Below, one piece after another: positions 15,404 to 54,158 of a stretch of DNA of 64,000 nucleotides; position 1 is the stretch's first letter; the number at the start of each line of letters is the position of its first letter. The stretch comes from Chitinophaga pinensis. GTDB taxonomy: Bacteria > Bacteroidota > Bacteroidia > UKL13-3. The translations under genes were made by a program, and so were the position numbers. The notes below the pieces were generated by a model, which saw nothing but the letters and a program-made list of their open reading frames with translations, was not told where the DNA came from and did not search any database. The stretch lies in NCBI GenBank assembly GCA_945870425.1, contig CAMBSD010000009.1, positions 50,180 through 114,179 of the forward strand, given 5' to 3'.

Positions 15404-17611
15404 TTAGTTTAATACTACTTTTTGAGTCAATGTATTTTCTCCCACCATCATTTTGATGAAGTAAATACCACTATTTAGGTTCAAGTCAGATTTACTAATC
15501 TGTAACTCATGCTTACCTTCTGATTGCATGCCATTACTAAGTGTAGCAATTTGTTTACCTGCAATATCAAAAATAGCCACTTCAACATTTTCTTTAGTAT
15601 TTAAGCTATAGGACATAATAGCAGAAGAATTGAAAGGGTTTGGATATAAATTGAAACCTAATTGTTCTTTTAATAAGTCGTTGTTGATACTTGAAGCTAA
15701 ACCAACTTGCACTTCATCCAGGTAGAAGTTATTTCCACCTTCGTATGCCAATTCAATTCTGAATTTAACATTATTGAGTGCTGCACCAGTTGGCAATAAA
15801 GCACCATCCAATTTAACTTCTTTCCATTTGCTTTGATCAGCAGGAACAAAATAACTTGTATATGGAATAGGAGAAGTAGCTGAACTACCATTGGTTGCCG
15901 TAAATAATGCAGCACCTGAAACTACCTTTTTAGCTGTCCATGATTTACCACAATCAGTAGAATAAGAAACTCTTAACACATCAGGAGATGCAGTAATTGA
16001 CAATGGTGAGTATGTACCTTGTGCAAATGCATACTTGAATTTGAAGTATGGGGCAGCAGAACCTGACAAGTTGAATGATGGGGAAATAAAATAGAAACTT
16101 GTTTGAATAGCACTTGGATTAACAGGCAACATCATGCTATAATTTCCAGAGTATGGAACAGGTGTTCTAACCCAAGTTAATCTAGTTGAAGCATTTTCGT
16201 TTTCAAAATACCAACCATTTGATTGGAAGTCATTTAAATAGTCCCAATCTGCTGTATAAGCGCTTTTAGGCAAAGCAGCAGTAGCAGGTAATATGGTAAT
16301 GTAATTTTTATAAACAGTATCTCTTGAACCTGCTGGTCCTGTAACTTTCAATTTTACATCATATGTTCCCGGATTGGCATAAGTAATAGCAGGTGTAGTT
16401 GTGCTAAGCGCAGAACTGGTTGAAGCCGTGTATGTATTGGGTGTACCTCCGTCAAAAGTCCATTCCGCAGAAGTTATAGTACCATTATACGAAGTTTGAC
16501 GGAAAGTAAAAGAGTTATTTGCACATGCAGTAGTTGATGTTGAAACATTGTTTAAAGTAATACCAAATGATGGGATAGGTGTGCAAGGAGTTGCGGCATC
16601 TAAAACACCTGTTCTAACTAAATTATCAGCTGACCATAATTGTCTTCTATAGTAATCTAATGAATAGAACATTCTAGCTCTTTGCTCTAATGTAAACATT
16701 TTACTAGAACAAGGACCGTCAAAATAATCCATAATATTTTCTTGTTGATCTGGTAAATCAGGATTATCATTTGAACAAGTATTATAAAGAGGTAAACCAC
16801 ATTTATTGCCTCTACCTGTGTTCACTTGATTTGTGCTGTAAGTAAAATAAGTTGGAGGAGTATCAAAAATATTATCACCATTGATATCACAACTATCCCC
16901 TTCAAACGGATGAGATAATCCAAACCAATGACCAGCTTCATGAGCACCTGTTCCATCAGCTATGAATTGACCAGCAACTAGCAATATACCATCCGTATTA
17001 GCGGGACTGAAGCCAACAGGAAATTGGGCAAAACCACCCACTTGTTTTCCTCCAGACAGAACCGAACTCGCCACCCAAATATTTAGGTATCTTTTGGTAT
17101 CCCATGAAATCAATTTTTTAATTTCATTAGTTGCATTTGAAGTTTGCTCCGTTTGAGTGCGGGTGATACCTGTGGTACAATTTCCCTGAGGATCTTTTTT
17201 TGCTAATCTGAATTCTATGTCACTGCAATCGGCTACGAGATGCTGAAAAATTGGACGAACACTAGCTGCTTTATTACCTTTATAAAAATCGTTCATAAGA
17301 TTAATAGTAGCCTGCACTTGCGCATCTGAAAGATTTTCTGAGCCATAGTTGTGCATAATATGTATTACAACTGGAATGATATATTTGGGCTGTGCACTTT
17401 TTTTAAGAATGTTAGATTTTATTTCATCTTTATGCATTTCGCGGTATTGAGACCAACCTTGTTCAAATTGGTTTCTTTGTTGAATGTACTCATCTGGGTT
17501 GAGGTCTCTCAACGACTGATTATACTGTGTGGTTCCGCATTTAGGAGTTTGTGCACTGGCACCAAGGCAGAACACAATTAAAGCACTTAGAGTAATAATT
17601 ATATTTTTCAT
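15404..17611 (-). CDS. metzincin (M43/pappalysin-like) zinc metalloprotease with T9SS C-terminal sorting domain
   Basis: Signal peptide. 'HEAGHWFGLSHPFEGDSCD' (HExxHxxGxxH). C-terminal 'LYPNPFNSSAIMSYSL...VAIFDIAGKQIATL...GIYFIKMMVGENTLTQKVVLN'. Confidence 0.8.
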   Translation of the reverse strand: MKNIIITLSALIVFCLGASAQTPKCGTTQYNQSLRDLNPDEYIQQRNQFEQGWSQYREMHKDEIKSNILKKSAQPKYIIPVVIHIMHNYGSENLSDAQVQATINLMNDFYKGNKAASVRPIFQHLVADCSDIEFRLAKKDPQGNCTTGITRTQTEQTSNATNEIKKLISWDTKRYLNIWVASSVLSGGKQVGGFAQFPVGFSPANTDGILLVAGQFIADGTGAHEAGHWFGLSHPFEGDSCDINGDNIFDTPPTYFTYSTNQVNTGRGNKCGLPLYNTCSNDNPDLPDQQENIMDYFDGPCSSKMFTLEQRARMFYSLDYYRRQLWSADNLVRTGVLDAATPCTPIPSFGITLNNVSTSTTACANNSFTFRQTSYNGTITSAEWTFDGGTPNTYTASTSSALSTTTPAITYANPGTYDVKLKVTGPAGSRDTVYKNYITILPATAALPKSAYTADWDYLNDFQSNGWYFENENASTRLTWVRTPVPYSGNYSMMLPVNPSAIQTSFYFISPSFNLSGSAAPYFKFKYAFAQGTYSPLSITASPDVLRVSYSTDCGKSWTAKKVVSGAALFTATNGSSATSPIPYTSYFVPADQSKWKEVKLDGALLPTGAALNNVKFRIELAYEGGNNFYLDEVQVGLASSINNDLLKEQLGFNLYPNPFNSSAIMSYSLNTKENVEVAIFDIAGKQIATLSNGMQSEGKHELQISKSDLNLNSGIYFIKMMVGENTLTQKVVLN

Positions 17612-43727: not shown

Positions 43728-44522
43728 TTAAGGCCTAACCGCCAGCACACCGTTATTGCTATTAATATCCAATAAAGGATAATCATTAAAATCAACTGAA
43801 GCATCTCCGTTTAGGTCATTCGCATCATATCCCAATATGCCATCATTGCTTGCTATATCAAGTGCAGGGTAATCATTAAAATCTACGGAACCATCTTGTG
43901 TAATGTCGCCACTATACATCGCAAAAACACCATTACCCATATTTGATAAGTTATCGCCAAAAGCTTTGTTAGCTGCATTGCTAAAATTATAAGATGCCCC
44001 CAAAGCAGTAATATTTACTGGACTTGCACTCCAAGTTTCAATGCTATTGCGATGTTTTACTACAATAAAGTATGCATTGCCAATAGCACTTGCAGGAATC
44101 AATACCTTAGCTGTTCCATCTGTATTTACAAGGGCATTACAAGAATAAATAGAATCATAAGGTGCATGGCTGCTGTGTAGTTTAACCTGTATGATGTCCG
44201 ACACTGTTTTTTCAGTTAATACACCTGGGGTATTAAACAAACTTTGCATTTTTGAATTGCCCACATAATAGCCTTCAATAAAAGCTGTAAGGTTTATATA
44301 CACACCCGTATCAATGCTTTCAGGCTGCTGATAACCTTGTGTAAGCATACTGGTATGATTACCCAAAGTAGCATTAAAGGTTTCACCTATGGTGGCACTT
44401 AGGTTAATATTTCCATTACTGAAATATGAACCTGCCACAGGTTGAGCCTTGCGGGTGATAGTTTGCGAGTATGAAACTTTAACAATAATAATTGATAAAA
44501 TGAATAGTATATTTTTTTTCAT
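43728..44522 (-). CDS. secreted protein with duplicated C-terminal dockerin-like Ca-binding repeats
   Basis: Signal peptide ending SYSQ. C-terminal 'GDITQDGSVDFNDYPALDIA' and 'NDLNGDASVDFNDYPLLDIN' (DxNxDGxVDxxDY F-hand pair). Confidence 0.55.
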   Translation of the reverse strand: MKKNILFILSIIIVKVSYSQTITRKAQPVAGSYFSNGNINLSATIGETFNATLGNHTSMLTQGYQQPESIDTGVYINLTAFIEGYYVGNSKMQSLFNTPGVLTEKTVSDIIQVKLHSSHAPYDSIYSCNALVNTDGTAKVLIPASAIGNAYFIVVKHRNSIETWSASPVNITALGASYNFSNAANKAFGDNLSNMGNGVFAMYSGDITQDGSVDFNDYPALDIASNDGILGYDANDLNGDASVDFNDYPLLDINSNNGVLAVRP

Positions 44523-44534
44523 AATAAGATTAGT

Positions 44535-44918
44535 TTATTGAATAATGTTGTACTCAATTATAGAAACAACATAACTTCGTCCTGCACCAGCCCAACCTAA
44601 ATAATCTCCGGATTGTAACCAAATTGTTTCTTTAATTACAGATAATGAAATTACATTGTTATTACCATAATTTATTTCTCTCGCAACATTGCTATAACAA
44701 GCATTATTTATTGTTAAACAACCTGATAAATTATTACTAAAATCGCGCCCTCCACTAATGCCCATAGATTCAATTTTCCATACTTTAACGCTAGGCACTG
44801 TATCGAATGTAGTAGTTGTAATACCAGTAAAAGTTCTTACCCTATTAAACTGCAAATTCCCTTGCGCATACGAAGCCATTGAAAATAATAGAATCGCAAT
44901 TGTTATTGTTTTTTTCAT
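44535..44918 (-). CDS. small secreted protein, paralog of 44930..45400
   Basis: Start set at 'MKKTITIAILLFSMASYAQGNLQFNRV'. Shares N-terminal (about 85% nt identity) and C-terminal (IIEYNII / AIEFNIV) segments with the neighbour. Confidence 0.55.
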   Translation of the reverse strand: MKKTITIAILLFSMASYAQGNLQFNRVRTFTGITTTTFDTVPSVKVWKIESMGISGGRDFSNNLSGCLTINNACYSNVAREINYGNNNVISLSVIKETIWLQSGDYLGWAGAGRSYVVSIIEYNIIQ

Positions 44919-44929
44919 ATTTTTTATAA

Positions 44930-45400
44930 TTATGGAACGATGTTGAATTCTATAGCTGAAATTAACATACCTGTGCCTTGTACAATTGAAATAACTTCTC
45001 CTGCCTTTAACCATACTGACGGTGCACCAAAACCACCCAATACTGGGGTATCCAATGTTGCTGGACATTGGCTGCACTGACCTTGAGGTGCAATAGTACT
45101 ATTATTAAGCTGGGTTAAATTATATTTTAACCCAGCTACTGAAGCAATTTCAAATGTATTGTGGGTATAATAACAATAATCACTACCCGATTGCCATATA
45201 CAATTAGTATATGGCAATTTAACTGTTAAATTATTCCCAGATCCTGTTGAAGTTATCTTCAAAACTTTCCCAGCAGGAACAGTATAAGTATCTCCGTTTT
45301 TTATATTTAAAACCTGATTAAACTGTAAATTACCTTGCGCATATGAAGCCATTGAAAACAGCAGCATTGCTATGGTTATAATTTTTTTCATGTTATTCAT
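44930..45400 (-). CDS. small secreted protein, paralog of 44535..44918
   Basis: 'MKKIITIAMLLFSMASYAQGNLQFNQV...', Cys-containing middle region. Confidence 0.55.
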   Translation of the reverse strand: MNNMKKIITIAMLLFSMASYAQGNLQFNQVLNIKNGDTYTVPAGKVLKITSTGSGNNLTVKLPYTNCIWQSGSDYCYYTHNTFEIASVAGLKYNLTQLNNSTIAPQGQCSQCPATLDTPVLGGFGAPSVWLKAGEVISIVQGTGMLISAIEFNIVP

Positions 45401-45402
45401 AA

Positions 45403-45852
45403 TTAAAATCCATCAGATAAATAAAGCATGGTATTGGCATTAGAGCCTTTGCTTGTGCCAGAAAATATGGAATAAGGAACACTCATCAATTGCTGCACAC
45501 CCATAAATGAGTAGTTGTTACCTGTAGCAGTGGTGTCTAATTCAACTTGCAAAAATTTTGAATTATTGCCCCAATTTACACCTGCCAAAGTTCCTGTAAT
45601 GGCCGTTCCCATGCCCACATTTAGGTTAAACATACCCAAGGCATTGGTGGTGGTGGTATGGGTTTCTTTAAAAGCAACCGTGCCTGTAGCCACACTATCC
45701 AAAATACTAAAGCGTACTTTAATAGCTGTATTGGTTAGTGCTTGTCCGTTGGCTTTTCTTGCAGCCGCTTGGTAAGGTATGCCAAGCGGTGCTTGGGCAT
45801 ACGTTTTTGCAAATCCTAGAATTGCAATTAATGTGTAGATTATTTTTCTCAT
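45403..45852 (-). CDS. small secreted protein, first gene of the cluster
   Basis: Signal peptide 'MRKIIYTLIAILGFAKTYAQ'. No known motif. Confidence 0.5.
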   Translation of the reverse strand: MRKIIYTLIAILGFAKTYAQAPLGIPYQAAARKANGQALTNTAIKVRFSILDSVATGTVAFKETHTTTTNALGMFNLNVGMGTAITGTLAGVNWGNNSKFLQVELDTTATGNNYSFMGVQQLMSVPYSIFSGTSKGSNANTMLYLSDGF

Positions 45853-46431: not shown

Positions 46432-47526
46432 CTATTCTTGTTTTTCTATATGAATGGTTTGGGTTGGATAAGCAAAACTACAATGGTTATTTTCTACGAT
46501 ATGCATAATTTTTAAGTTTAGCATTTCTTTTACTTCTATCATCTTTTCAAACTCGTTGCTGTTTACATAATAGATCACCAATATGTTAAGCGAACTGCTG
46601 CCAAACTCTGTAAACCTTACATTGGTTTCATCGCAGGTATCAGGGTGTGCATCTATCTCGGTTTTTATTTGTTCTATAATGTTGAGTATGTTTTCTGACT
46701 TAGCTCCATAGGTCAGTTGCAAACTAAACCTCACACGCCTTTGGGTACTTTGGGTGATATTGTTTAGCGCAGCATCTACCATTTTTTTGTTGGGCACGGT
46801 AAGCAAGCTGCGGTCTAAAGTCCTAACGCGTGTAGTCCTAAATCCAATTTTTTCAATATTGCCTTTTATCTCACCTGCTTCAACCAAATCGCCTACACTA
46901 AAGGGTTTGTCTAAGTAAATAATAAAGGAGCCAAACAAGTTGGCAATCGTATCCTGAGCAGCAAGAGCCACAGCCAATCCTCCAATACCCAAACTGGCAA
47001 TCAGAGCGGTAATGTTTACTTCAAAAGCTTGTGCTAGAATCACAAAAAACGAAATGATAATGGCCAAAACCTTCGACAGTTCTTTGATAAACCTAACCAA
47101 ATCTTTACTCACTTCGGTATCCTCACTATGGATAAAAACGTAAGAAATAAAATCAAATACACGCAAAACTATGCGCGTAAAAACTACGATAAGGGCAATT
47201 TCAAATAGGGCTTCAATCAACCAACGAACACCAAATTTCTCAATAGGGTCAATGTCCCAAATGACTGGAAAATGTAACCTGTCCAAAGCAAAATATACCA
47301 CTAATACGGTGATAAACTGCTCAACCGGTTTTAAAAATAGGGTAACAAAAACCTCAGAATAACGGTTGTGGGCAATGCCTTTGACAAAGCGAAAACTTTG
47401 GCGGCTGATGATGCGTGCCGAAACCCTTTTTAACAAAAAGCCTAGCAACAATATGCCAAAGGCAATGAGATATTGGTAGAGGGTATTATCTAAAAAAACC
47501 TGATTATAAAATTCTGCCGTAAACAT
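46432..47526 (-). CDS. mechanosensitive ion channel, MscS family
   Basis: TM3-like 'AVALAAQDTIANLFGSFIIYLDKPFSVGDLVE' followed by beta-domain 'GNIEKIGFRTTRVRTLDRSLLTVPN'. Confidence 0.8.
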   Translation of the reverse strand: MFTAEFYNQVFLDNTLYQYLIAFGILLLGFLLKRVSARIISRQSFRFVKGIAHNRYSEVFVTLFLKPVEQFITVLVVYFALDRLHFPVIWDIDPIEKFGVRWLIEALFEIALIVVFTRIVLRVFDFISYVFIHSEDTEVSKDLVRFIKELSKVLAIIISFFVILAQAFEVNITALIASLGIGGLAVALAAQDTIANLFGSFIIYLDKPFSVGDLVEAGEIKGNIEKIGFRTTRVRTLDRSLLTVPNKKMVDAALNNITQSTQRRVRFSLQLTYGAKSENILNIIEQIKTEIDAHPDTCDETNVRFTEFGSSSLNILVIYYVNSNEFEKMIEVKEMLNLKIMHIVENNHCSFAYPTQTIHIEKQE

Positions 47527-47598
47527 ACCGCAAATATAGGGTTGAATTTGAGAATGAGGGAATATGAAAATGTGCTTATGGGATATTCAAAACCTACA

Positions 47599-47717
47599 CA
47601 AGTGTTAAGCGAAGCGTCACTTGCAAATAGAAAGATTAAAATTTTGTAACTTTTATATAGCAATCATATCACAAAAAGGATGGCTTCATACAATAAATGT
47701 CAGGTGGAAACACGTGA
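47599..47717 (+). repeat. interspersed element, copy 1 (5'-truncated, degenerate terminal hairpin)
   Basis: At least 85% identical to 50351..50488 and 51493..51632 over the core AGTGTTAAGCGAAGCGTCACTTG...GTCAGGTGGAAACAC. Confidence 0.6.
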
Positions 47718-47757
47718 TAGAACTAGTAAAGAAAACTACTTTCAAATATCTTCGATA

Positions 47758-48309
47758 TTAGTAAATAACCTTGCAATTGCCTGCGGCTATTAAGTTACTC
47801 CAATCCGCCAACTTAATATTTTCAGTTCCACAATCAGAATAGAGGACTTCCAGCGAGTTTTCCGAAACGCCAGTTATACAGAAAACATTACCAACACCAG
47901 CAGATAAAAACATATAAACTTTTATTCCATTAAGTTCTGTAATTAACTCATGAATTATAAATTGACCAGAGGACTTTAATCGTTCAATTATAAATCTTTC
48001 AGCGTCATTCACATTAACTTTTGCAGGTTTTTCCTCATCAACTAATCGAGGTTGTTCTGCCCTTTTTTTTGTCAGGAACTGAGGTATCCCTGCTTTAATA
48101 ATAGAATCAACAAGCCTTTTATTCTCATTAGCCTGATATAAGGAATCTACAGCATAAATTGAATCCTTTAGCTTTTGTTCATTTTTCATTTTTAATTGTC
48201 TTTCATCACTACCACATCCACATAATATTAATGATAATAATAACAATTGAAAAATTGATAAAAATTTGCGATTATATTTGAAAGAATTATTTAAAAATTT
48301 AAGCCTCAT
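47758..48309 (-). CDS. lipoprotein, unknown function
   Basis: Lipobox 'LILCGCGS'. No known motif. Confidence 0.5.
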   Translation of the reverse strand: MRLKFLNNSFKYNRKFLSIFQLLLLSLILCGCGSDERQLKMKNEQKLKDSIYAVDSLYQANENKRLVDSIIKAGIPQFLTKKRAEQPRLVDEEKPAKVNVNDAERFIIERLKSSGQFIIHELITELNGIKVYMFLSAGVGNVFCITGVSENSLEVLYSDCGTENIKLADWSNLIAAGNCKVIY

Positions 48310-48506
48310 TTTCGAATAGGTGTTAAAAGTTTGAAATGCTATTATTTTCTCAACTTTGGTTAACTGGCATTTCTGGGATTTCAGTAGTGCCAGTTTTAGT
48401 AGTTACAATTGTAAAGCTAGCATTTAAATGCCTTATACCTGAGACTTCCATTATTAGAAAATAATAAAAACTAAAAAACAGTTTTATATAACAATTGTCC
48501 TGTTTT

Positions 48507-49085
48507 CTAATTTAAAAACAACCTCTCAATTAATAGGTCATAAAAGGCATATAATTCGCACCCAATTAACAAACTAAATAAACCAACACTTATTACTTCG
48601 TAGATATTATCAGAAAAAATTCCTGACCTTAAATCTCTAATTACTATTGAAGAGTAAATAAATTCAAATAGAAAATATACCCCAACAAGTATTGTTCCCC
48701 ACAATCCAAGTCCAATATGTTTACTTACTTGTTCGATATCATATTGAAAAATAAACTTATTGACTACAAAAAAAATAATTAAAAACAAGATAGTTTGTGC
48801 ATAAGAAAAATAAGCATTTTTGTTCAGAAGAGCAGAAATAATCAAATAGAATGATAATATTGGAATAAGGTACAAAACATAAACTTTATTGTAAATAATA
48901 TCGGTTTTATAATCTGCACCTATAAGTTCACCTATAAGTTGATTTGACTCATTTACAAGTGTCAAAAGATCCCATGCAGAAGCTTTAAAAATCCATGGCA
49001 AAAAGAAAAATAATAGCAATAAAAGACTTGAAATTATAACTTTTAAATTCTTAATTTGAATGTTTTGTGATTCACTATTATTCAT
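48507..49085 (-). CDS. polytopic membrane protein, unknown function
   Basis: Start set at MNNSESQ. Four or five predicted TM helices. Confidence 0.45.
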   Translation of the reverse strand: MNNSESQNIQIKNLKVIISSLLLLLFFFLPWIFKASAWDLLTLVNESNQLIGELIGADYKTDIIYNKVYVLYLIPILSFYLIISALLNKNAYFSYAQTILFLIIFFVVNKFIFQYDIEQVSKHIGLGLWGTILVGVYFLFEFIYSSIVIRDLRSGIFSDNIYEVISVGLFSLLIGCELYAFYDLLIERLFLN

Positions 49086-49176
49086 ATTTTCGTTGTTAAC
49101 TGTATTTTTAAATCTATTTATTGCTATAGTTGTAAATTTTATTTCAAAGATTATTTCATATATATATATATTGATA

Positions 49177-49749
49177 CTAAATCTCATAAATTTGGTACCT
49201 ATTTAATTTGTATATCTCATGCCCTTTTGGAAACACTATAGGTTGTGATAAAATGTTTAAGTTTTTGAATTCAAAACTCACGTTGAATAAGGGTTCAGTT
49301 CCTAAACCTGCTACAATCTGGTTAAACATCTTTACATCAGCATTTGCTGCTTTTACTTGTTTGCGCATTTGCTTAATCCAGCCCTTAGCATAAAACTGAT
49401 TTTGAATAGTATGATTTTCATCTACAAAATATTCCCATTTTTTAAGTGTAGCAATATGCAAGCGTTCTTTGGTCTGCTTATTTAGGGTATATAAAATAAG
49501 TTCTTAAGGAAAGTTTCTTAGTTTAGTACTTTTTGCAACACCTTGTAAAAAGGCATATTTCATCCCATTAATTAAAGTGGATTGATCAAACAACCATTCT
49601 TCAAAACCAAAATGGTGTTTGCCTTCAAAACAATCTGGATTACTGCTTTTACCGGCTAATCCAGTAGGCATTTTCCAATTTTTTGAATTAAACGTAAGGC
49701 GAGTATATTGCATAATAATAATAAATTTTTTGGCAATCGATAAATTCAA
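49177..49749 (-). pseudogene. hypothetical protein interrupted by in-frame TAA (49504-49506)
   Basis: Track ORFs 49504..49749 and 49177..49461 are in the same frame, separated by one TAA plus 14 sense codons. Confidence 0.45.
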
Positions 49750-49945
49750 TAAGTATTAGTTTTATAATTTTTTTTATTATTAATTAGAAAACAAATTTAA
49801 CAGGGCAATAGGTCTATTCAAATTATATTTGGTAGTTTTATTTTACTTTTAAGTATTTTATTTATACTTTTAGTTATATTTGTTTAATAAAATTAGTAAA
49901 TCAACTACCTTAAGAATTATGCATACAAAAACAAAATCAGATCAG

Positions 49946-50334
49946 ATGAAACGTTCAGAAGAACTGCGCATTGGAAAAAAATAAAACAACTGAGAGAACT
50001 AAAAAACTTTTCTCAGGAGTATATGGCTTCTCATTTAAAAATGAGTGTACCCGGATATGGTAGAATTGAAAGAAATGAGGTAGATGTTAGTATTGAGAGG
50101 GCAAATCAAATTGCAAATGTTTTAGGAATTAGTTTAACTGAATTAATCAGCTTTGACGAGAAATATATATTTAATAATTATGCTAATAACCAAAATGCTT
50201 TTGTTATTAATAGTGAATTACACCAAGTTGATAAAAAGACCTTAATAGAATTAGTTGATTACCTTAAACAACAACTACAATTAAAAGATGAGTTAATAAA
50301 AGAATTGGTACTTGGTAAAAAAAATATCAAGTAA
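49946..50334 (+). pseudogene. XRE-family HTH regulator with frameshift in A7 homopolymer
   Basis: ATG at 49946 gives 'MKRSEELRIGKK' and stops at TAA. With one extra A in the A7 run (49975-49981) it reads '...IGKKIKQLRELKNFSQEYMASHLKMSVPGYGRIERNE...', a complete HTH. The track ORF 50023..50334 lacks helix 1. Confidence 0.55.
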
Positions 50335-50350
50335 GTGTAAAATGTTTTCC

Positions 50351-50488
50351 TTCCTCGCTTTCGCATTTGTTAAGCGAAGCGTCACTTGTAAATAGAAAGA
50401 TTAAAAGTTTGTAACTTTTATATAGCAACCATATCATATAAAGGATTGCTTCATACAATAAATGTCAGGTGGAAACACCTGACACCAC
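50351..50488 (+). repeat. interspersed element, copy 2 (full core)
   Basis: CCTCGCTTTCGCA-N-TGTTAAGCGAAGCG hairpin, AT-rich middle, GTCAGGTG-GAAA-CACCTGAC hairpin. An imperfect hairpin with T-tract follows at about 50513-50550. Confidence 0.65.
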
Positions 50489-50566
50489 TACAAAATAAAA
50501 TCAATATTTACAAAGAAGACGTCCATTTAAGACAACTTCTTTATTTGGTATAATTTATAGTTTAGT

Positions 50567-50745
50567 TTAAGAGTCTTTTGCTTTTCTTGATTTTCTATAA
50601 TATAAAATTAATGGAAGAAAACCGAAAATTATATGTAATATAGATAGCCTAAATTCATTATAAGTAAAATAGCTAAGATATACAAATCCAGCATTACCCA
50701 ATATTGTTATTATTATAACAACAATTAAATTTAGCTTCCCCATAA
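50567..50745 (-). CDS. small hydrophobic protein (59 aa, 2 TM), overlaps the upstream stop
   Basis: 'MGKLNLIVVIIITILGNAGFVYLSYFTYNEFRLSILHIIFGFLPLILYYRKSRKAKDS'. ATG overlaps the upstream ORF's last codons. Not in the ORF track (<60 aa). Coordinates approximate. Confidence 0.3.
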
Positions 50746-51348
50746 TACATAACTGAGTTGAAGTATCTGGAGTGCATTAACAAAAGACTGTTTCTCAGTT
50801 ACAGATAATTCAAATCCACTAACATTATTAATCAAAGCACCTAAATTATCTACCCATTGATCTTGATCAGCACCTTGAATACTATCAAAAGTATCTGATA
50901 CCGTTTCTGAATCTAAAGTGTTTAATGGTATGACATTTGTGGTAGCAACCATCCATTCATCAACAGTTGACATATCTTGAGCCAAAGCTGAAGCTATAAT
51001 GTCATCAAAATATGATTGAGTTATTGCTTCTAATCCAGCAGTCCAATCTGGTCTAACCTGACAAGCAATTGGAATTATAATATCATAGGTTACTGAAGTA
51101 TTTCCAGCCGCAAAAAACTGCTCACAAGTTAAATTGTGATTTATACCTGTATTATCTGTTGTGCTGGGTATTAGGTGAACTACAGGTGAATCAATACTCC
51201 ATCCATCTGATGCTTTCTTATCTGAGTAATATGCTGTTGAAGCCGCAGCTGCAATTGCAAAACTTAAAAAGCCTGTTTCAGCTGATAGTAAACCTGCTAA
51301 ATAATCGCATGATGCAATAGCGTTTTTTTGGTCTCTTGTTAATGCCAT
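50731..51348 (-). CDS. acidic hypothetical protein, no signal peptide
   Basis: 205 aa, D/E-rich C-terminal half. No known motif. Confidence 0.5.
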   Translation of the reverse strand: MALTRDQKNAIASCDYLAGLLSAETGFLSFAIAAAASTAYYSDKKASDGWSIDSPVVHLIPSTTDNTGINHNLTCEQFFAAGNTSVTYDIIIPIACQVRPDWTAGLEAITQSYFDDIIASALAQDMSTVDEWMVATTNVIPLNTLDSETVSDTFDSIQGADQDQWVDNLGALINNVSGFELSVTEKQSFVNALQILQLSYVLWGS

Positions 51349-51492
51349 AATAGTTTTTTTTAATTATTAAACGCCCTGTAAGATTAATTTAATTGCGCAC
51401 AAGGCCTGTTAAAATAACATTATTTTACAGTTATGCTTATGAGATAATAATTAATGTGATTTTATAATTTATTCCGATGCTTTCCAATGCAT

Positions 51493-51702
51493 TCCCTCGC
51501 TTTCGCAAGTGTTAAGCGAAGCGTCACTTGTGAATAGAAAGATTAAAATTTTGTAACTTTTATATACCAATCATATCATATAAAGGATGGCTTCATACAA
51601 TAAATATCAGGTGGAAACACCTGACACCACCACTAGGTGGAAACATCTGACTTCACCACTTCACCTGACTTCACCACTAAAACATCTGACATCACCACTA
51701 AC
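51493..51702 (+). repeat. interspersed element, copy 3, extended by a 12-13-nt tandem microrepeat
   Basis: Same core as copies 1 and 2. Then about five CTGAC(A/T)(C/T)CACCAC-like units (51620-51702). Track ORF 51587..51790 lies inside this element. Confidence 0.65.
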
Positions 51703-51739
51703 AAAAAAAGCCCATCGTTCAATGAACGATGGGCTTTTT
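51703..51739. terminator. bidirectional rho-independent terminator
   Basis: AAAAAAAGCCCATCGTTCA-ATGAACGATGGGCTTTTT, a 12-bp perfect stem with A and T tracts on both sides. Confidence 0.7.
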
Positions 51740-51818
51740 ATTTATGTTAAAAGCAATCATACCGAACTGATATTTGTAATAGACCAATAAATTTGGTCTA
51801 ACAACTATCTAATCGGTA

Positions 51819-54071
51819 TTAGTACAACATTACTTTTTTAACGATTGATTTGTTTTCGTTTTCAACCAATACTACATAAACCCCTTTTTGGCTCATGTTT
51901 ACAGCATATGTATCGCTGCTAGTGGTACCTTCGCTTAGCACGCGGCCTAGCATATCGGTTACCGTTACTTTAGCTTTTGATGCATTGTCTAATTGCACCA
52001 CTATTTCACTAGTTTCTTGGTTAGTATAAATTCTAGCAAAATCAGTGTTCAACTCATTCACACCATTAATAATACCTGGCATATAAGTCATATTGGTAAA
52101 GTTGATACCATACACCCACAATGGATTATCAATAAATGGATTTCTGTTTTTCTGAATCGAAGAAATGTATTCATGACGCGCTATTTCTAATTCACTAGGT
52201 GGATCTTGTCGGTGCCATTTCATTAACACAGCAGTATCTTGTGCAAATTTACCACCGCTTAAGCCCCAATTTTGGCTGTAAGCACCATTGTAGCAAGTGG
52301 CCATATAAAACAAGGCACGGGCTAAATCTCCTTTGTGCTCATCGCGTGGTTCCCACACTGTTTTGTTGTTGGCATCTTTACCTAATTTTCCATATCCTGA
52401 AGGAGAAGTAGAGGTAAGGGTTACCACTTCACCAAAAGCATTGTTTGATCTAGTTAGGTTGGCATTGATTTGGTCGGTAGGAAACAAATGGTGCTGATCA
52501 TTATATTCAGGAAAATCTTTTCCATTAGGTGCTTGTGGCCACGTATTAGGATCCATATTGCTAGGCATCCAGCTTTGAGCGAATGTATGTTCTCTTGTCA
52601 ATGTTCCTGTTGAGCTTGATGCATTCCACCAAACAAATGGCTCAGAATAAACATAAGGCATATTGGTATACACGCAATACACGACTTTCTTACCACCAGT
52701 GGTATCTTTAGCCAACCAATTGTTTATTAATGTAGTGGTATAATTGCTATAAAAAATTGTATCGTGCGTATTGATTTTAGCTGAAAGCTCCGTTAAGAAA
52801 CTTGCCTTTCTTGGATCAAGACTTGCATAGTAGCTACCCGCATTTGAACCAGTAGTAGTTACAACCCCAGTCATAGGACTAGTGATTAAATAATTTTCGA
52901 AACTAGCAGGGCCATTGAAAGGAAATACAGCATAATGGTATACAGAATTAGCCAAAACATAAGTAGGTTTGAAAGTGGTATCAGCACCCACATAAGCCAC
53001 TTGCGCATCACCAATATTATCTCCTTTGCTATAGGTTTGACCATCCACGGGTACTTCATTTACAGCAGCATCATTTTTTCTTAATACCAGATACTTGTCT
53101 GACTTGTTTGCAGGTGGAAAAATATTTACAGAGTAAGTATATGCTTTAACGCCACCAAAAGTAATATTGTTTATTTTTTCGGTTGGTTCGGTAGCTAAAT
53201 TACCACCTATACCATACAACTTGAAGTTGAAAGGATTTTTTTCAGTATCTGAATTGCTAATGGCTAATGTAGCTTTTCTGGAACCTATGCTAGTGGTAGA
53301 AAAATTAACATTGAAGGTAGCTGATGAATTAGCCAATACATAAGCTGGAGCCGCACTCACAGAGAAATCAGCCGCAGCAGTGCCTGTAAAGTTCATACCG
53401 GTGATGAATAAAGTATCTAAGGTACCTTTATTCTCAATGGTAAACTGTGTGCTAGCTGTTTTTCCTATTAATGCAGTGCTACCATTTACCACATCAGCGC
53501 CTGCCAATTTCACATTGATGGTAGCCAAAGGCGATGCAGGTGCGCTAGCCAATGTAACATTATCTAAAGACACGTTTGAACCAGATTGTTTGTCAAGGTA
53601 AAAAAATCTGATATATCTGCTAGTAGATTTCGGGTTATCTGTAATGCTAGCAAATGCATTTGTTAAATCAGCTGCTGTGAAAGTGCGTAAATCAGTCCAT
53701 GTATTTCCATCTGCAGACTCTTGTGTTTTAAAAGTTCCAGCAAACGCAGGCGCTGGAGAAATACCAGTACCTTTAATATAATAACTTAAAGCACCCGGCT
53801 TATCTGTAAACCATATTTTCACATACTCACCTGTTTGGTCTAAGCGACATGCAGCATTGCCATCTTGGCCACTAGCATAGGTAAATCCTAGAACGGAGAT
53901 ATCCAACTTGGTTGACCAGCCTGTTGGGCCCGGATATTCAGGACCTGTAGGATTACTTGATGTAGACCCCGTAGGTGAAGGATTCACAAAGCTCCATGCT
54001 GTAGGCAATGTGGTTTGTGCATAGCTACTTAATGTCACAAAAATTGCCAAAATTGTAATAATTTTTTTCAT
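51819..54071 (-). CDS. secreted endonuclease I family (EndA/NucM/Vvn-like) nuclease with T9SS C-terminal sorting domain
   Basis: Signal peptide 'MKKIITILAIFVTLSSYAQ' (start set here). 'EHTFAQSW', 'DQHHLFP...N.TRSN' Endonuclease I catalytic motifs. C-terminal 'VTVTDMLGRVL...GVYVVLVENENKSIVKKVMLY'. Confidence 0.75.
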   Translation of the reverse strand: MKKIITILAIFVTLSSYAQTTLPTAWSFVNPSPTGSTSSNPTGPEYPGPTGWSTKLDISVLGFTYASGQDGNAACRLDQTGEYVKIWFTDKPGALSYYIKGTGISPAPAFAGTFKTQESADGNTWTDLRTFTAADLTNAFASITDNPKSTSRYIRFFYLDKQSGSNVSLDNVTLASAPASPLATINVKLAGADVVNGSTALIGKTASTQFTIENKGTLDTLFITGMNFTGTAAADFSVSAAPAYVLANSSATFNVNFSTTSIGSRKATLAISNSDTEKNPFNFKLYGIGGNLATEPTEKINNITFGGVKAYTYSVNIFPPANKSDKYLVLRKNDAAVNEVPVDGQTYSKGDNIGDAQVAYVGADTTFKPTYVLANSVYHYAVFPFNGPASFENYLITSPMTGVVTTTGSNAGSYYASLDPRKASFLTELSAKINTHDTIFYSNYTTTLINNWLAKDTTGGKKVVYCVYTNMPYVYSEPFVWWNASSSTGTLTREHTFAQSWMPSNMDPNTWPQAPNGKDFPEYNDQHHLFPTDQINANLTRSNNAFGEVVTLTSTSPSGYGKLGKDANNKTVWEPRDEHKGDLARALFYMATCYNGAYSQNWGLSGGKFAQDTAVLMKWHRQDPPSELEIARHEYISSIQKNRNPFIDNPLWVYGINFTNMTYMPGIINGVNELNTDFARIYTNQETSEIVVQLDNASKAKVTVTDMLGRVLSEGTTSSDTYAVNMSQKGVYVVLVENENKSIVKKVMLY

Positions 54072-54158
54072 ATGTATTTTTATTCGAACCGCAATCTTAC
54101 TAAAATAATTTGATGTATAAATTATCAAAGCATTATTTATGTTTGTTTTTACATAGTT

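What the first reader, a model, noticed from the sequence alone, without database searches (positions are those of the whole stretch)
47599..51739. Three same-orientation copies of a ~140-nt interspersed element with a conserved GAAA-tetraloop hairpin
Copies at about 47599-47717, 50351-50488 and 51493-51632 are 85-95% identical at the nucleotide level while all flanking sequence is unrelated. The shared core has a 5' imperfect hairpin (CGCTTTCGCA-N8-GCGAAGCG), a conserved AT-rich segment (TTTGTAACTTTTATATAGCAA) and a perfect 8-bp stem with GAAA loop (GTCAGGTG-GAAA-CACCTGAC). The GNRA-type loop and the compensatory-looking decay of this hairpin in truncated copy 1 fit an RNA element. The core is followed by a terminator-like hairpin in copy 2 and by microrepeats plus a strong terminator in copy 3. 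All copies are intergenic, in the accessory block, and each lies immediately 3' of a minus-strand gene. The apparent mini-ORF (MASYNKCQVET..., track ORF 51587..51790) is conserved only because the DNA is. Candidates are a small-RNA gene family, a MITE-like element or a regulatory 3'-UTR element. I could not match it from memory to any named family; the Flavo-1 RNA motif of Flavobacteria is worth checking.
Basis: seen in the sequence. Interest (0 to 1): 0.72.

Follow-up and report, generated by a model that had tools for sequence, protein, structure and literature searches.

The report
Composite REP repeats, not RNA genes
The three repeats are real, but each is a fusion of two different DNA hairpin repeats (REPs) of the kind spread through genomes by RAYT transposases, so this is an uncharted member of a known class and not a new RNA gene.

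Summary
There are three same-orientation copies, 85-94% identical, with unrelated flanks and no Rfam match.

The interpretation changes. The 5' third is a REP hairpin (REP-A). It has a GCT foot, a 10-bp stem (TTCGCAAGTG/CACTTGTGAA) and a 13-nt cap, TTAAGCGAAGCGT, that holds the d(GCGAAGC) mini-hairpin. Its 19-nt core occurs in 59 genome loci, 57 of them from Bacteroidota or Balneolota. The outer stem covaries strongly. Copies flank RAYT transposase genes in inverted orientation; the genes hit NCBIfam NF047646 and fit Quentin subclass 2.6. A second covarying hairpin (hp2) follows REP-A.

The "GAAA tetraloop" hairpin is a second, unrelated REP family (REP-B), read here on the opposite strand as GTGG-TGTCAGGTG-TTTC-CACCTGACA. 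It occurs in more than 120 metagenome loci, forms inverted doublets, and flanks its own RAYT genes.

The full 140-nt unit (REP-A, hp2, linker, inverted REP-B) was found only at this one hypervariable intergenic locus, in four related genomes. There the units form tandem arrays, with accessory gene blocks sitting between them.

It is a BIME-like REP mosaic: a new member of a known kind, of modest interest.

The parts
47588..47730 (+). Composite unit, copy 1. It is degenerate: the REP-A foot and outer stem are lost, and REP-B carries 2 mismatches.
   Evidence: (54.9 bits)
50352..50495 (+). Composite unit, copy 2. The REP-A stem carries mismatches (CATTTG / CACTTGTAAA). hp2 and REP-B are perfect.
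   Evidence: (57.4 bits)
51494..51637 (+). Composite unit, copy 3. REP-A is intact. REP-B has one change at its first base.
   Evidence: (69.5 bits)
51499..51534 (+). REP-A of copy 3: GCT foot (51499-51501), 10-bp stem (51502-51511 / 51525-51534) and 13-nt cap TTAAGCGAAGCGT holding GCGAAGC. The equivalent stem-loops are 50360-50392 in copy 2 and 47595-47627 in copy 1.
50403..50419 (+). hp2, the second hairpin: AAAAGTT-TGT-AACTTTT. The equivalents are 47638-47654 and 51545-51561, each with one mismatch.
50464..50488 (-). REP-B of copy 2. On the minus strand it reads GTGG foot, TGTCAGGTG, TTTC, CACCTGAC. The equivalents are 47699-47718 (degenerate) and 51606-51630.
51609..51701 (-). Micro-repeats: tandem partial copies of the REP-B foot plus left arm (GTGGTGAnGTCAGrTG...).
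   Evidence: (D2). The same feature lies 5' of a RAYT-B gene in L145.
51705..51739 (.). Bidirectional intrinsic terminator (16-bp stem) of the endonuclease gene. It is not part of the repeat.
   Evidence: It is conserved in L068.
47731..50351 (.). A 2.6-kb accessory block of about 27% GC lying between units 1 and 2. It is absent from the related genomes RGVD01, L068 and L147.
50496..51493 (.). A 1.0-kb block (58-aa and 205-aa ORFans) between units 2 and 3. It is shared with RGVD01 and absent from L068 and L147.

Best explanation
Each copy is a BIME-like mosaic of two different REP (repetitive extragenic palindrome) families, with their feet pointing outward. On the plus strand lies REP-A: a C-rich lead, a GCT foot, a 10-bp stem, and a cap holding the d(GCGAAGC) mini-hairpin. 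REP-A is followed by its companion hairpin hp2 (AGTT-loop-AACT core). A linker of about 45 nt follows. On the minus strand lies REP-B (GTGG foot, 9-bp stem, TTTC loop).

Shown: both hairpins belong to large families with covarying stems. Members of each family flank RAYT (REP-associated tyrosine transposase, Y1/HUH) genes in inverted orientation. The units occur as tandem arrays that differ between related genomes.

Inferred from work on E. coli TnpAREP: a cognate RAYT binds the folded single-stranded DNA hairpin, cleaves beside the foot (REP-A keeps a conserved CT there) and rejoins strands. This would amplify, move and recombine the units.

In this window the copies look like passive, decaying remnants. 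Only copy 3 has an intact REP-A, and there is no RAYT gene within the 64 kb. The units lie 3' of minus-strand genes, so the REP-B hairpin plus its T-rich tail may also act as a terminator or a 3'-end stabiliser.
For: REP-A distribution. Its 19-mer core gives 59 genome loci, where I estimate about 4 by chance. Of these, 57 are Bacteroidota or Balneolota.

REP-A structure. The stem is 90.9% paired, with 75 compensatory cells against 28 +/- 3.9 in shuffles (0 of 500 shuffles reach the observed value). Pair types at the outermost pair are GC 27, CG 11, UA 9 and AU 8.

REP-A and RAYT. Twelve of 59 loci carry a gene that hits NF047646 (REP-associated tyrosine transposase) at 100-105 bits against a cutoff of 80. 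The genes also hit Pfam Y1_Tnp and, weakly, PDB 4ER8. Eight of 9 complete genes are flanked by inverted REP-A copies. Two more were fetched through protein homologues.

RAYT class. The motifs NHVH, WQ and YIH[NK]NP and a length of about 183 aa fit subclass 2.6 of Quentin 2018. That paper describes flanking 'atypical secondary structures', and its Table S1 lists close analogues: F. litoralis CTGGCGCAAGGT..ACCTTGTGC, and P. saltans with the loop TTAAGTGAAACGT.

hp2. It is present after 44 of 67 REP-A copies against 19% in shuffles, and its basal stems covary.

Cap. The variants keep GCG-N(1-2)-AGC, which is the mini-hairpin consensus.

Of 34 variant hairpins, 29 are perfectly complementary, through the swaps AGG/CCT, GGA/TCC, GGT/ACC and GGG/CCC. 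There are 28 inverted doublets. RAYT genes (99-108 bits to NF047646) are flanked by inverted REP-B in L094 and L145 and lie adjacent to REP-B in 4 more loci.

Turnover. Tandem arrays and copy-number differences occur between genomes that are about 87% identical. Copies within a genome are more alike than positional orthologues.
Against: No RAYT gene lies in the 64-kb window, and I could not show that the host genome has one.

The full 140-nt composite was found only at this single locus, in four related genomes. Genome-wide interspersion is therefore shown only for its two REP parts separately.

REP-A lacks the canonical GT[AG]G foot.

No subclass 2.6 RAYT has been tested biochemically, so cleavage at the CT foot is an analogy.

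Transcription of the element cannot be excluded.

The origin of the 45-nt linker is unresolved.
Confidence: 0.85

Rival explanations
1. A family of small-RNA genes or a cis-acting 3'-UTR RNA element whose function depends on the GAAA-tetraloop hairpin.
For: The hairpins are stable: the z-score is -5.9 for copy 2. Copies 2 and 3 are followed by hairpin plus T-run structures. Every copy lies in the 3' region of a gene. In some relatives hp2 contains TAACTTTG, which fits the Bacteroidota -7 box TAnnTTTG (the consensus is from my own knowledge).
Against: There is no Rfam match, including Flavo-1, down to E = 10. Both hairpins are members of RAYT-flanking DNA repeat families. These occur in both orientations, in inverted doublets and in head-to-tail arrays. 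The GAAA loop is TTTC in the foot-first orientation. Changes in the window copies are one-sided and destabilising. The REP-A cap follows a DNA-specific mini-hairpin rule. No sigma-70-type promoter enrichment was seen (28 found against 26.3 expected).
Confidence: 0.07
2. The copies are attachment sites or cassette boundaries of integrated accessory DNA. On this reading each gene block arrived with, or was inserted at, a repeat by site-specific recombination.
For: Gene blocks always sit exactly between complete units, and they differ among four related genomes. The blocks are low-GC ORFans.
Against: There is no integrase or recombinase in or near the blocks. Units also occur in tandem with nothing between them (RGVD01 A-B and L147). 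The repeat parts are ordinary REP families that occur elsewhere without cassettes. Within-genome homogenisation also fits homologous recombination between REP units.
Confidence: 0.06
3. A conserved mini-protein gene (MASYNKCQVET..., ORF 51587-51790).
For: An ORF caller annotated a 67-aa product on the source contig.
Against: The ATG is ATT in copy 2. In the related copies the frame reads M-A-L-stop (RGVD_A) or has no start (RGVD_C, L147). The copy-3 ORF runs through the micro-repeats and the terminator.
Confidence: 0.01

Closest known systems
REP sequences flanking subclass 2.6 (Bertels group 5) RAYT/TnpAREP genes of Bacteroidetes (Quentin et al. 2018, PMC6006769, Table S1)
   Same: The associated transposase has the subclass signature (NHVH, WQ, YIH[QN]NP, about 180 aa). 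The REP lacks GT[AG]G and has a GCT/CT foot and a GGCGCAAG-type stem, as in F. litoralis, S. linguale and Z. galactanivorans. The P. saltans REP has the same stem plus a 13-nt TTAAG...CGT cap. The B. baltica entry contains AGTCT...AGACT hairpins like hp2.
   Different: The exact REP-A (CAAGTG stem with TTAAGCGAAGCGT cap) is not in their table. Its core is identical across at least three classes and a sister phylum. The companion hp2 and the GCG-N-AGC cap rule are not described in that paper.
E. coli REP/BIME and TnpAREP (Ton-Hoang et al. 2012, PMC3333891; PDB 4ER8)
   Same: Both are mosaics of REPs in opposite orientation joined by linkers and amplified in tandem. Both are extragenic and lie 3' of genes. 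A Y1/HUH enzyme acts on the folded single-stranded DNA, and a CT dinucleotide is needed at the cleavage site. The published model also allows capture of flanking genes.
   Different: In the window unit the two REPs belong to unrelated families with different cognate RAYTs. The foot motifs differ. Head-to-tail arrays are common here but rare for classical REPs (Di Nocera 2013, PMC3733652). There is no biochemistry for these families.
REPINs (Bertels and Rainey)
   Same: REP-B in metagenomes, and REP-A in Cytophagales, form inverted feet-outward doublets with fixed spacing.
   Different: The window unit pairs two non-complementary REPs, so it cannot fold into the long REPIN hairpin.
IS200/IS605 subterminal hairpins and MITEs
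   Same: Both are non-autonomous, hairpin-defined DNA mobilised in trans by a Y1 transposase.
   Different: There are no terminal inverted repeats of one sequence and no target-site duplication. The associated gene scores as RAYT (105 bits) and falls below the cutoff for IS200 (30 bits against 55).
Flavo-1 and other Rfam Bacteroidota RNA motifs
   Same: Both are intergenic hairpin-rich repeats in Bacteroidota.
   Different: There is no match at the gathering threshold or at E <= 10.

Membership tests
REP (RAYT-associated repetitive extragenic palindrome) | A short palindrome able to form a stem-loop, with the stem maintained by compensatory change | tested here: met
   REP-A: 90.9% paired, 75 compensatory cells against 28 in shuffles, 0/500. 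REP-B: 29 of 34 variant hairpins are perfectly complementary through 3 alternative stems.
REP (RAYT-associated repetitive extragenic palindrome) | A conserved unpaired foot next to the stem (canonically 5' GT[AG]G) | tested here: inconclusive
   REP-B has GTGG in window copies 2 and 3, but nTGn in general. REP-A has a conserved (G/A)CT foot, not GTAG. Quentin 2018 reports the same for subclass 2.6.
REP (RAYT-associated repetitive extragenic palindrome) | Copies flank a RAYT gene in inverted orientation (a REPtron) | tested here: met
   REP-A: 8 of 9 complete genes in the genome loci, plus L184 and L188. REP-B: L094 and L145. The genes hit NF047646 above its cutoff.
REP (RAYT-associated repetitive extragenic palindrome) | Many extragenic copies within one genome | tested here: inconclusive
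   There are at least 17 REP-A copies in 7 loci of the related MAG RGVD01. Only 3 lie in this 64-kb window, and the rest of the host genome was not available.
REP (RAYT-associated repetitive extragenic palindrome) | A cognate RAYT encoded in the same genome, and cleavage of the REP by it | not testable with these tools
   No RAYT lies in the window.
BIME-like mosaic | Two REPs in opposite orientation joined by a conserved linker, with the unit repeated in tandem | tested here: met
   The unit architecture is shown. Tandem units occur in RGVD01 (A-B) and L147.
REPIN | Two inverted copies of the same REP that can pair into one long hairpin | tested here: not met
   REP-A and REP-B are unrelated in sequence. 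The folds show separate hairpins only.
MITE | Terminal inverted repeats and a target-site duplication | tested here: not met
   No inverted-repeat ends and no duplicated flanks were found.
Rfam RNA families (including Flavo-1) | A covariance-model score at or near the gathering threshold | tested here: not met
   The only hit at the gathering threshold in the whole window is a tRNA. At E <= 10, all but three sub-threshold chance hits in the region fall on the terminator at 51666-51847, and none falls on the repeats.
Intrinsic terminator | A GC-rich hairpin followed by a T-run on the transcribed strand | tested here: inconclusive
   REP-B on the minus strand plus TATTGTAT was flagged for copies 2 and 3. 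The tail is weak, and there are no expression data.

The most novel reading that the evidence does not exclude
The tandem array of composite REP units between the MscS and endonuclease genes may act as a landing pad. RAYT-type single-strand cleavage and strand transfer at the outward-facing feet would capture or exchange whole accessory gene blocks between units. That would give an integron-like cassette site without an integrase. It would explain why four related genomes carry 0, 0, 1 and 2 different blocks between their units, each placed exactly at unit boundaries.
Probability: 0.1. Interest if true: 0.65.

Novelty: new member of a known kind. Interest (0 to 1): 0.3.

Why it matters
It removes a candidate 'new RNA family' and files it correctly as REP/RAYT-type DNA. 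The work gives three things that could interest people who study HUH/Y1 enzymes.

1. A REP core (stem plus a GCG-N-AGC mini-hairpin cap) stays identical across classes of Bacteroidota, while the cognate RAYT proteins are only about 55-60% identical. This is a clean substrate for testing how the untested subclass 2.6 enzymes recognise DNA.

2. The companion hairpin hp2 travels with REP-A.

3. A natural locus exists where units of two REP families are fused, amplified and interleaved with gene blocks. This bears on the proposal that RAYT activity can capture flanking genes.

For annotation, these repeats break assemblies and generate false small ORFs.

Tried and rejected
Rfam at the gathering threshold over the whole window, and at E <= 10 over the region, gave nothing on the repeats.

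Its 3' arm was fixed by my search pattern, so covariation could not be tested.

The mini-ORF is rejected because its start and frame are not conserved.

The idea that the whole 140-nt unit is one interspersed element is rejected. The 3' module accompanies REP-A only at the syntenic locus.

The idea that the linker is a vestige of the RAYT 5'UTR and start codon (ATGGCTTCATAC against ATGAGTAGATCCTAT in L061) rests on a resemblance too weak to claim. The REPtrons of closer RAYT homologues (L184, L188) did not settle it.

An empty-site comparison at the RGVD01 REP array after the FBPase gene failed because synteny ends there, so there is no clean target site.

BLAST of the unit against plasmids and phages gave no match.

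Pfam and PADLOC on the inter-unit genes found only an HTH_3 domain.

A sigma-70-type promoter scan was not informative.


Full report
OBSERVATION. The three copies are real. The repeat finder gives a 139-nt family at 47588-47726, 50353-50491 and 51495-51633, with 86% and 94% identity to copy 2. A MAFFT alignment shows that similarity stops at both ends. The internal 21-mer and the GAAA hairpin each match three times, against 0.01 and 0.00 expected. All copies are intergenic. Each lies 28-186 nt beyond the stop of a minus-strand gene. The window comes from a metagenome contig (ENA ERZ27280289, 277 kb). In an independent sample, Logan contigs break inside the copies, which is how repeats behave in assembly. 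Rfam finds nothing on the repeats at the gathering threshold or at E <= 10, including Flavo-1. Nearly all the weak hits fall on the terminator at about 51666-51847.

THE 5' HAIRPIN IS A REP.
- Distribution. One genome-collection scan with the invariant 19-mer TTAAGCGAAGCGTCACTTG returned 59 loci, where I estimate about four by chance. All but two (L007 and L013, which score poorly with the model) come from Bacteroidota classes (Cytophagia, Flavobacteriia-labelled MAGs, Saprospiria) or from Balneolota.
- Structure. The aligned flanks show that the true structure is a 10-bp stem around a 13-nt cap: xxCGCAAGTG-TTAAGCGAAGCGT-CACTTGYGx'x'. On 68 distinct copies the stem is 90.9% paired. It has 75 doubly changed cells against 28 +/- 3.9 in shuffles (0 of 500), and slid controls reach at most 50% paired. 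The outermost pair occurs as GC 27, CG 11, UA 9 and AU 8.
CGCTTTCGCA/GCGAAGCG is paired in only 72% of cells. Its left arm changes freely while the right arm stays constant.
- Foot. Directly 5' of the stem a CT is conserved (C in 62 of 68 copies, T in 60 of 68), preceded by a C-rich run.

ASSOCIATION WITH RAYT.
- In 12 of the 59 loci a gene of about 183 aa lies next to the hairpin. It hits NCBIfam NF047646 'REP-associated tyrosine transposase' at 100-105 bits (cutoff 80). It scores below the cutoff for IS200, hits Pfam Y1_Tnp, and weakly hits PDB 4ER8, the E. coli TnpAREP.
- A covariance model built from the hairpin shows that 8 of 9 complete genes are bracketed by copies in inverted orientation, with the 5' copy on the same strand as the gene. 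L061 shows the whole unit.
- The protein family is large, with 3553 relatives at E <= 1e-40, and sources name it RayT. Two homologues fetched through the protein search (L184, L188) have the same REP-hp2 ... hp2'-REP' flanks. L188 also has a tandem duplication of the gene's 3' end together with its REP.
- The motifs NHVH, WQ and YIH[NK]NP and the length match subclass 2.6 of Quentin et al. 2018 (group 5 of Bertels 2017). That subclass is described as mostly Bacteroidetes and as flanked by 'atypical secondary structures' without GT[AG]G. Their Table S1 lists close analogues, such as F. litoralis CTGGCGCAAGGT-TCT-ACCTTGTGC and P. saltans with a TTAAGTGAAACGT loop, but not this sequence.

CAP AND SECOND HAIRPIN. 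The cap contains GCGAAGC, the extraordinarily stable DNA mini-hairpin (Tm 76.5 C; consensus GCGNAGC or GCGNNAGC). The 19-mer was fixed by my search. Among 38 model hits that lack it, 20 still keep GCG-N(1-2)-AGC: GCGAAGC 8, GCGTAGC 4, GCGCAGC 3, GCGAAAGC 3, GCGATAGC 1 and GCGTTAGC 1. Variation thus falls where the DNA motif allows it, which points to a single-stranded DNA structure. About 10 nt downstream, 44 of 67 copies carry a perfect hairpin of at least 5 bp, against 19% of shuffles. Nearly all have an AGT(T/C)-loop-(A/G)ACT core and covarying basal pairs.

THE GAAA HAIRPIN IS A SECOND REP FAMILY.
- The 3' 70 nt accompany REP-A only at the syntenic locus of a related MAG.
Read on the other strand, the motif is foot (GTGG, GTGC, ATGA ...) - TGTCAGGTG - TTTC - CACCTGACA.
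- Of 34 non-query hairpins of this form in those loci, 29 are perfectly complementary through three alternative stems. There are 28 adjacent inverted pairs, 27 of them feet-outward, spaced mostly at about 30 or 62 nt.
- Six loci have a RAYT-like gene within about 150 nt. The L094 and L145 proteins hit NF047646 at 99 and 108 bits and are bracketed by inverted REP-B copies. L145 also has tandem partial foot-plus-arm copies like the window's micro-repeats at 51609-51701.
- REP-A and REP-B are otherwise independent. They co-occur only in this clade and in L089.
- The hairpin changes among the window and related copies are all one-sided, so the 'compensatory decay' is not supported.

THE UNIT AND ITS LOCUS. 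The unit is foot-REP-A, hp2, a linker of about 45 nt, then REP-B-foot, with the feet pointing outward. DNA folds recover the separate hairpins. Four related genomes (85-89% nucleotide identity) differ at this one intergenic site:
- L068: MscS, one unit (with REP-B doubled), terminator, endonuclease.
- L147: three tandem units.
- RGVD01: two tandem units, a 1-kb block, a third unit.
- This window: unit, 2.6-kb low-GC block, unit, 1-kb block, unit.
The blocks encode ORFans, with only one HTH_3 domain recognised. Copies within a genome resemble each other more than their positional orthologues do (c2-c3 91.6% against c3-C 81.8%). This indicates turnover or gene conversion. In the window only copy 3 keeps an intact REP-A (69.5 bits, against 57.4 and 54.9 for the others). 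No RAYT gene lies within the 64 kb.

MECHANISM. The sequence families, the covariation, the RAYT linkage and the array polymorphism are shown. The rest is inferred from E. coli TnpAREP: recognition of folded single-stranded REPs, a requirement for CT at the cleavage site, tandem amplification, and possible capture of flanking genes. On that analogy a cognate RAYT cuts beside the foot and rejoins strands. A secondary role as a terminator or 3'-end stabiliser for the upstream minus-strand genes is possible. REP-B plus its T-rich tail was flagged as terminator-like on the minus strand for copies 2 and 3.

VERDICT. This is a BIME-like mosaic of two RAYT-associated REP families. It is not an RNA gene and not a coding ORF. 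It is a new member of a known kind. The composite was seen at one locus only, and the presence of a RAYT in the host genome could not be tested.

Noticed in passing
window 46432-54128; L052, L068, L147: The intergenic site between the MscS-type channel gene and the endonuclease/T9SS gene is hypervariable among four related genomes. It holds 1-3 composite REP units, with 0-2 accessory gene blocks between them, always placed exactly between complete units.
   Followed up: partly
window 49177-49749 (-): The 81-aa and 94-aa ORFs are one reading frame interrupted by a single TAA. This is a likely pseudogene inside the 2.6-kb low-GC block.
   Followed up: partly
L012 6893-7230, against window 43033 onward: The related MAG RGVD01 has a head-to-tail array of about 4.5 REP-A+hp2 units (81-nt period) just after the FBPase gene. 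The window has no REP there, and synteny ends at that point.
   Followed up: partly
L188 2550-2870: The 3' end of a RAYT-A gene (about 150 nt of coding sequence) is tandemly duplicated together with its inverted hp2+REP-A. This is a natural example of REP-linked duplication that captures adjacent sequence.
   Followed up: no
L184 1840-1925 and 2960-3030: A RAYT-A REPtron is surrounded by two other hairpin repeat types. One is TGTTGTCAGGAA-TTGC-TTCCTGACAACA. The others are REP-B-like GTCGG..GAAA/CCCGAC hairpins. Several REP families therefore cluster together in other genomes too.
   Followed up: no
L089 6535-6610: A REP-A-like variant with a different stem (TTGGTG-TTTAAGCGAAGCGC-CACCAA) lies 17 nt from a REP-B copy in an unrelated metagenome contig.
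   Followed up: no
L147 about 685-690: One unit's REP-B is cut off just after its loop (…ATCAGGTGGAAAC) and joined directly to the 5' lead of the next REP-A. The junction lies within the hairpin, which suggests recombination or cleavage there.
   Followed up: no
window 43728-45852 (-): A run of four small secreted-looking paralogous ORFs (149-264 aa, with signal-peptide-like N-termini) lies next to the variable region.
   Followed up: no
window 17311-17365 (+): A weak REP-A model hit (16 bits, E = 0.09). It is probably noise.
   Followed up: no
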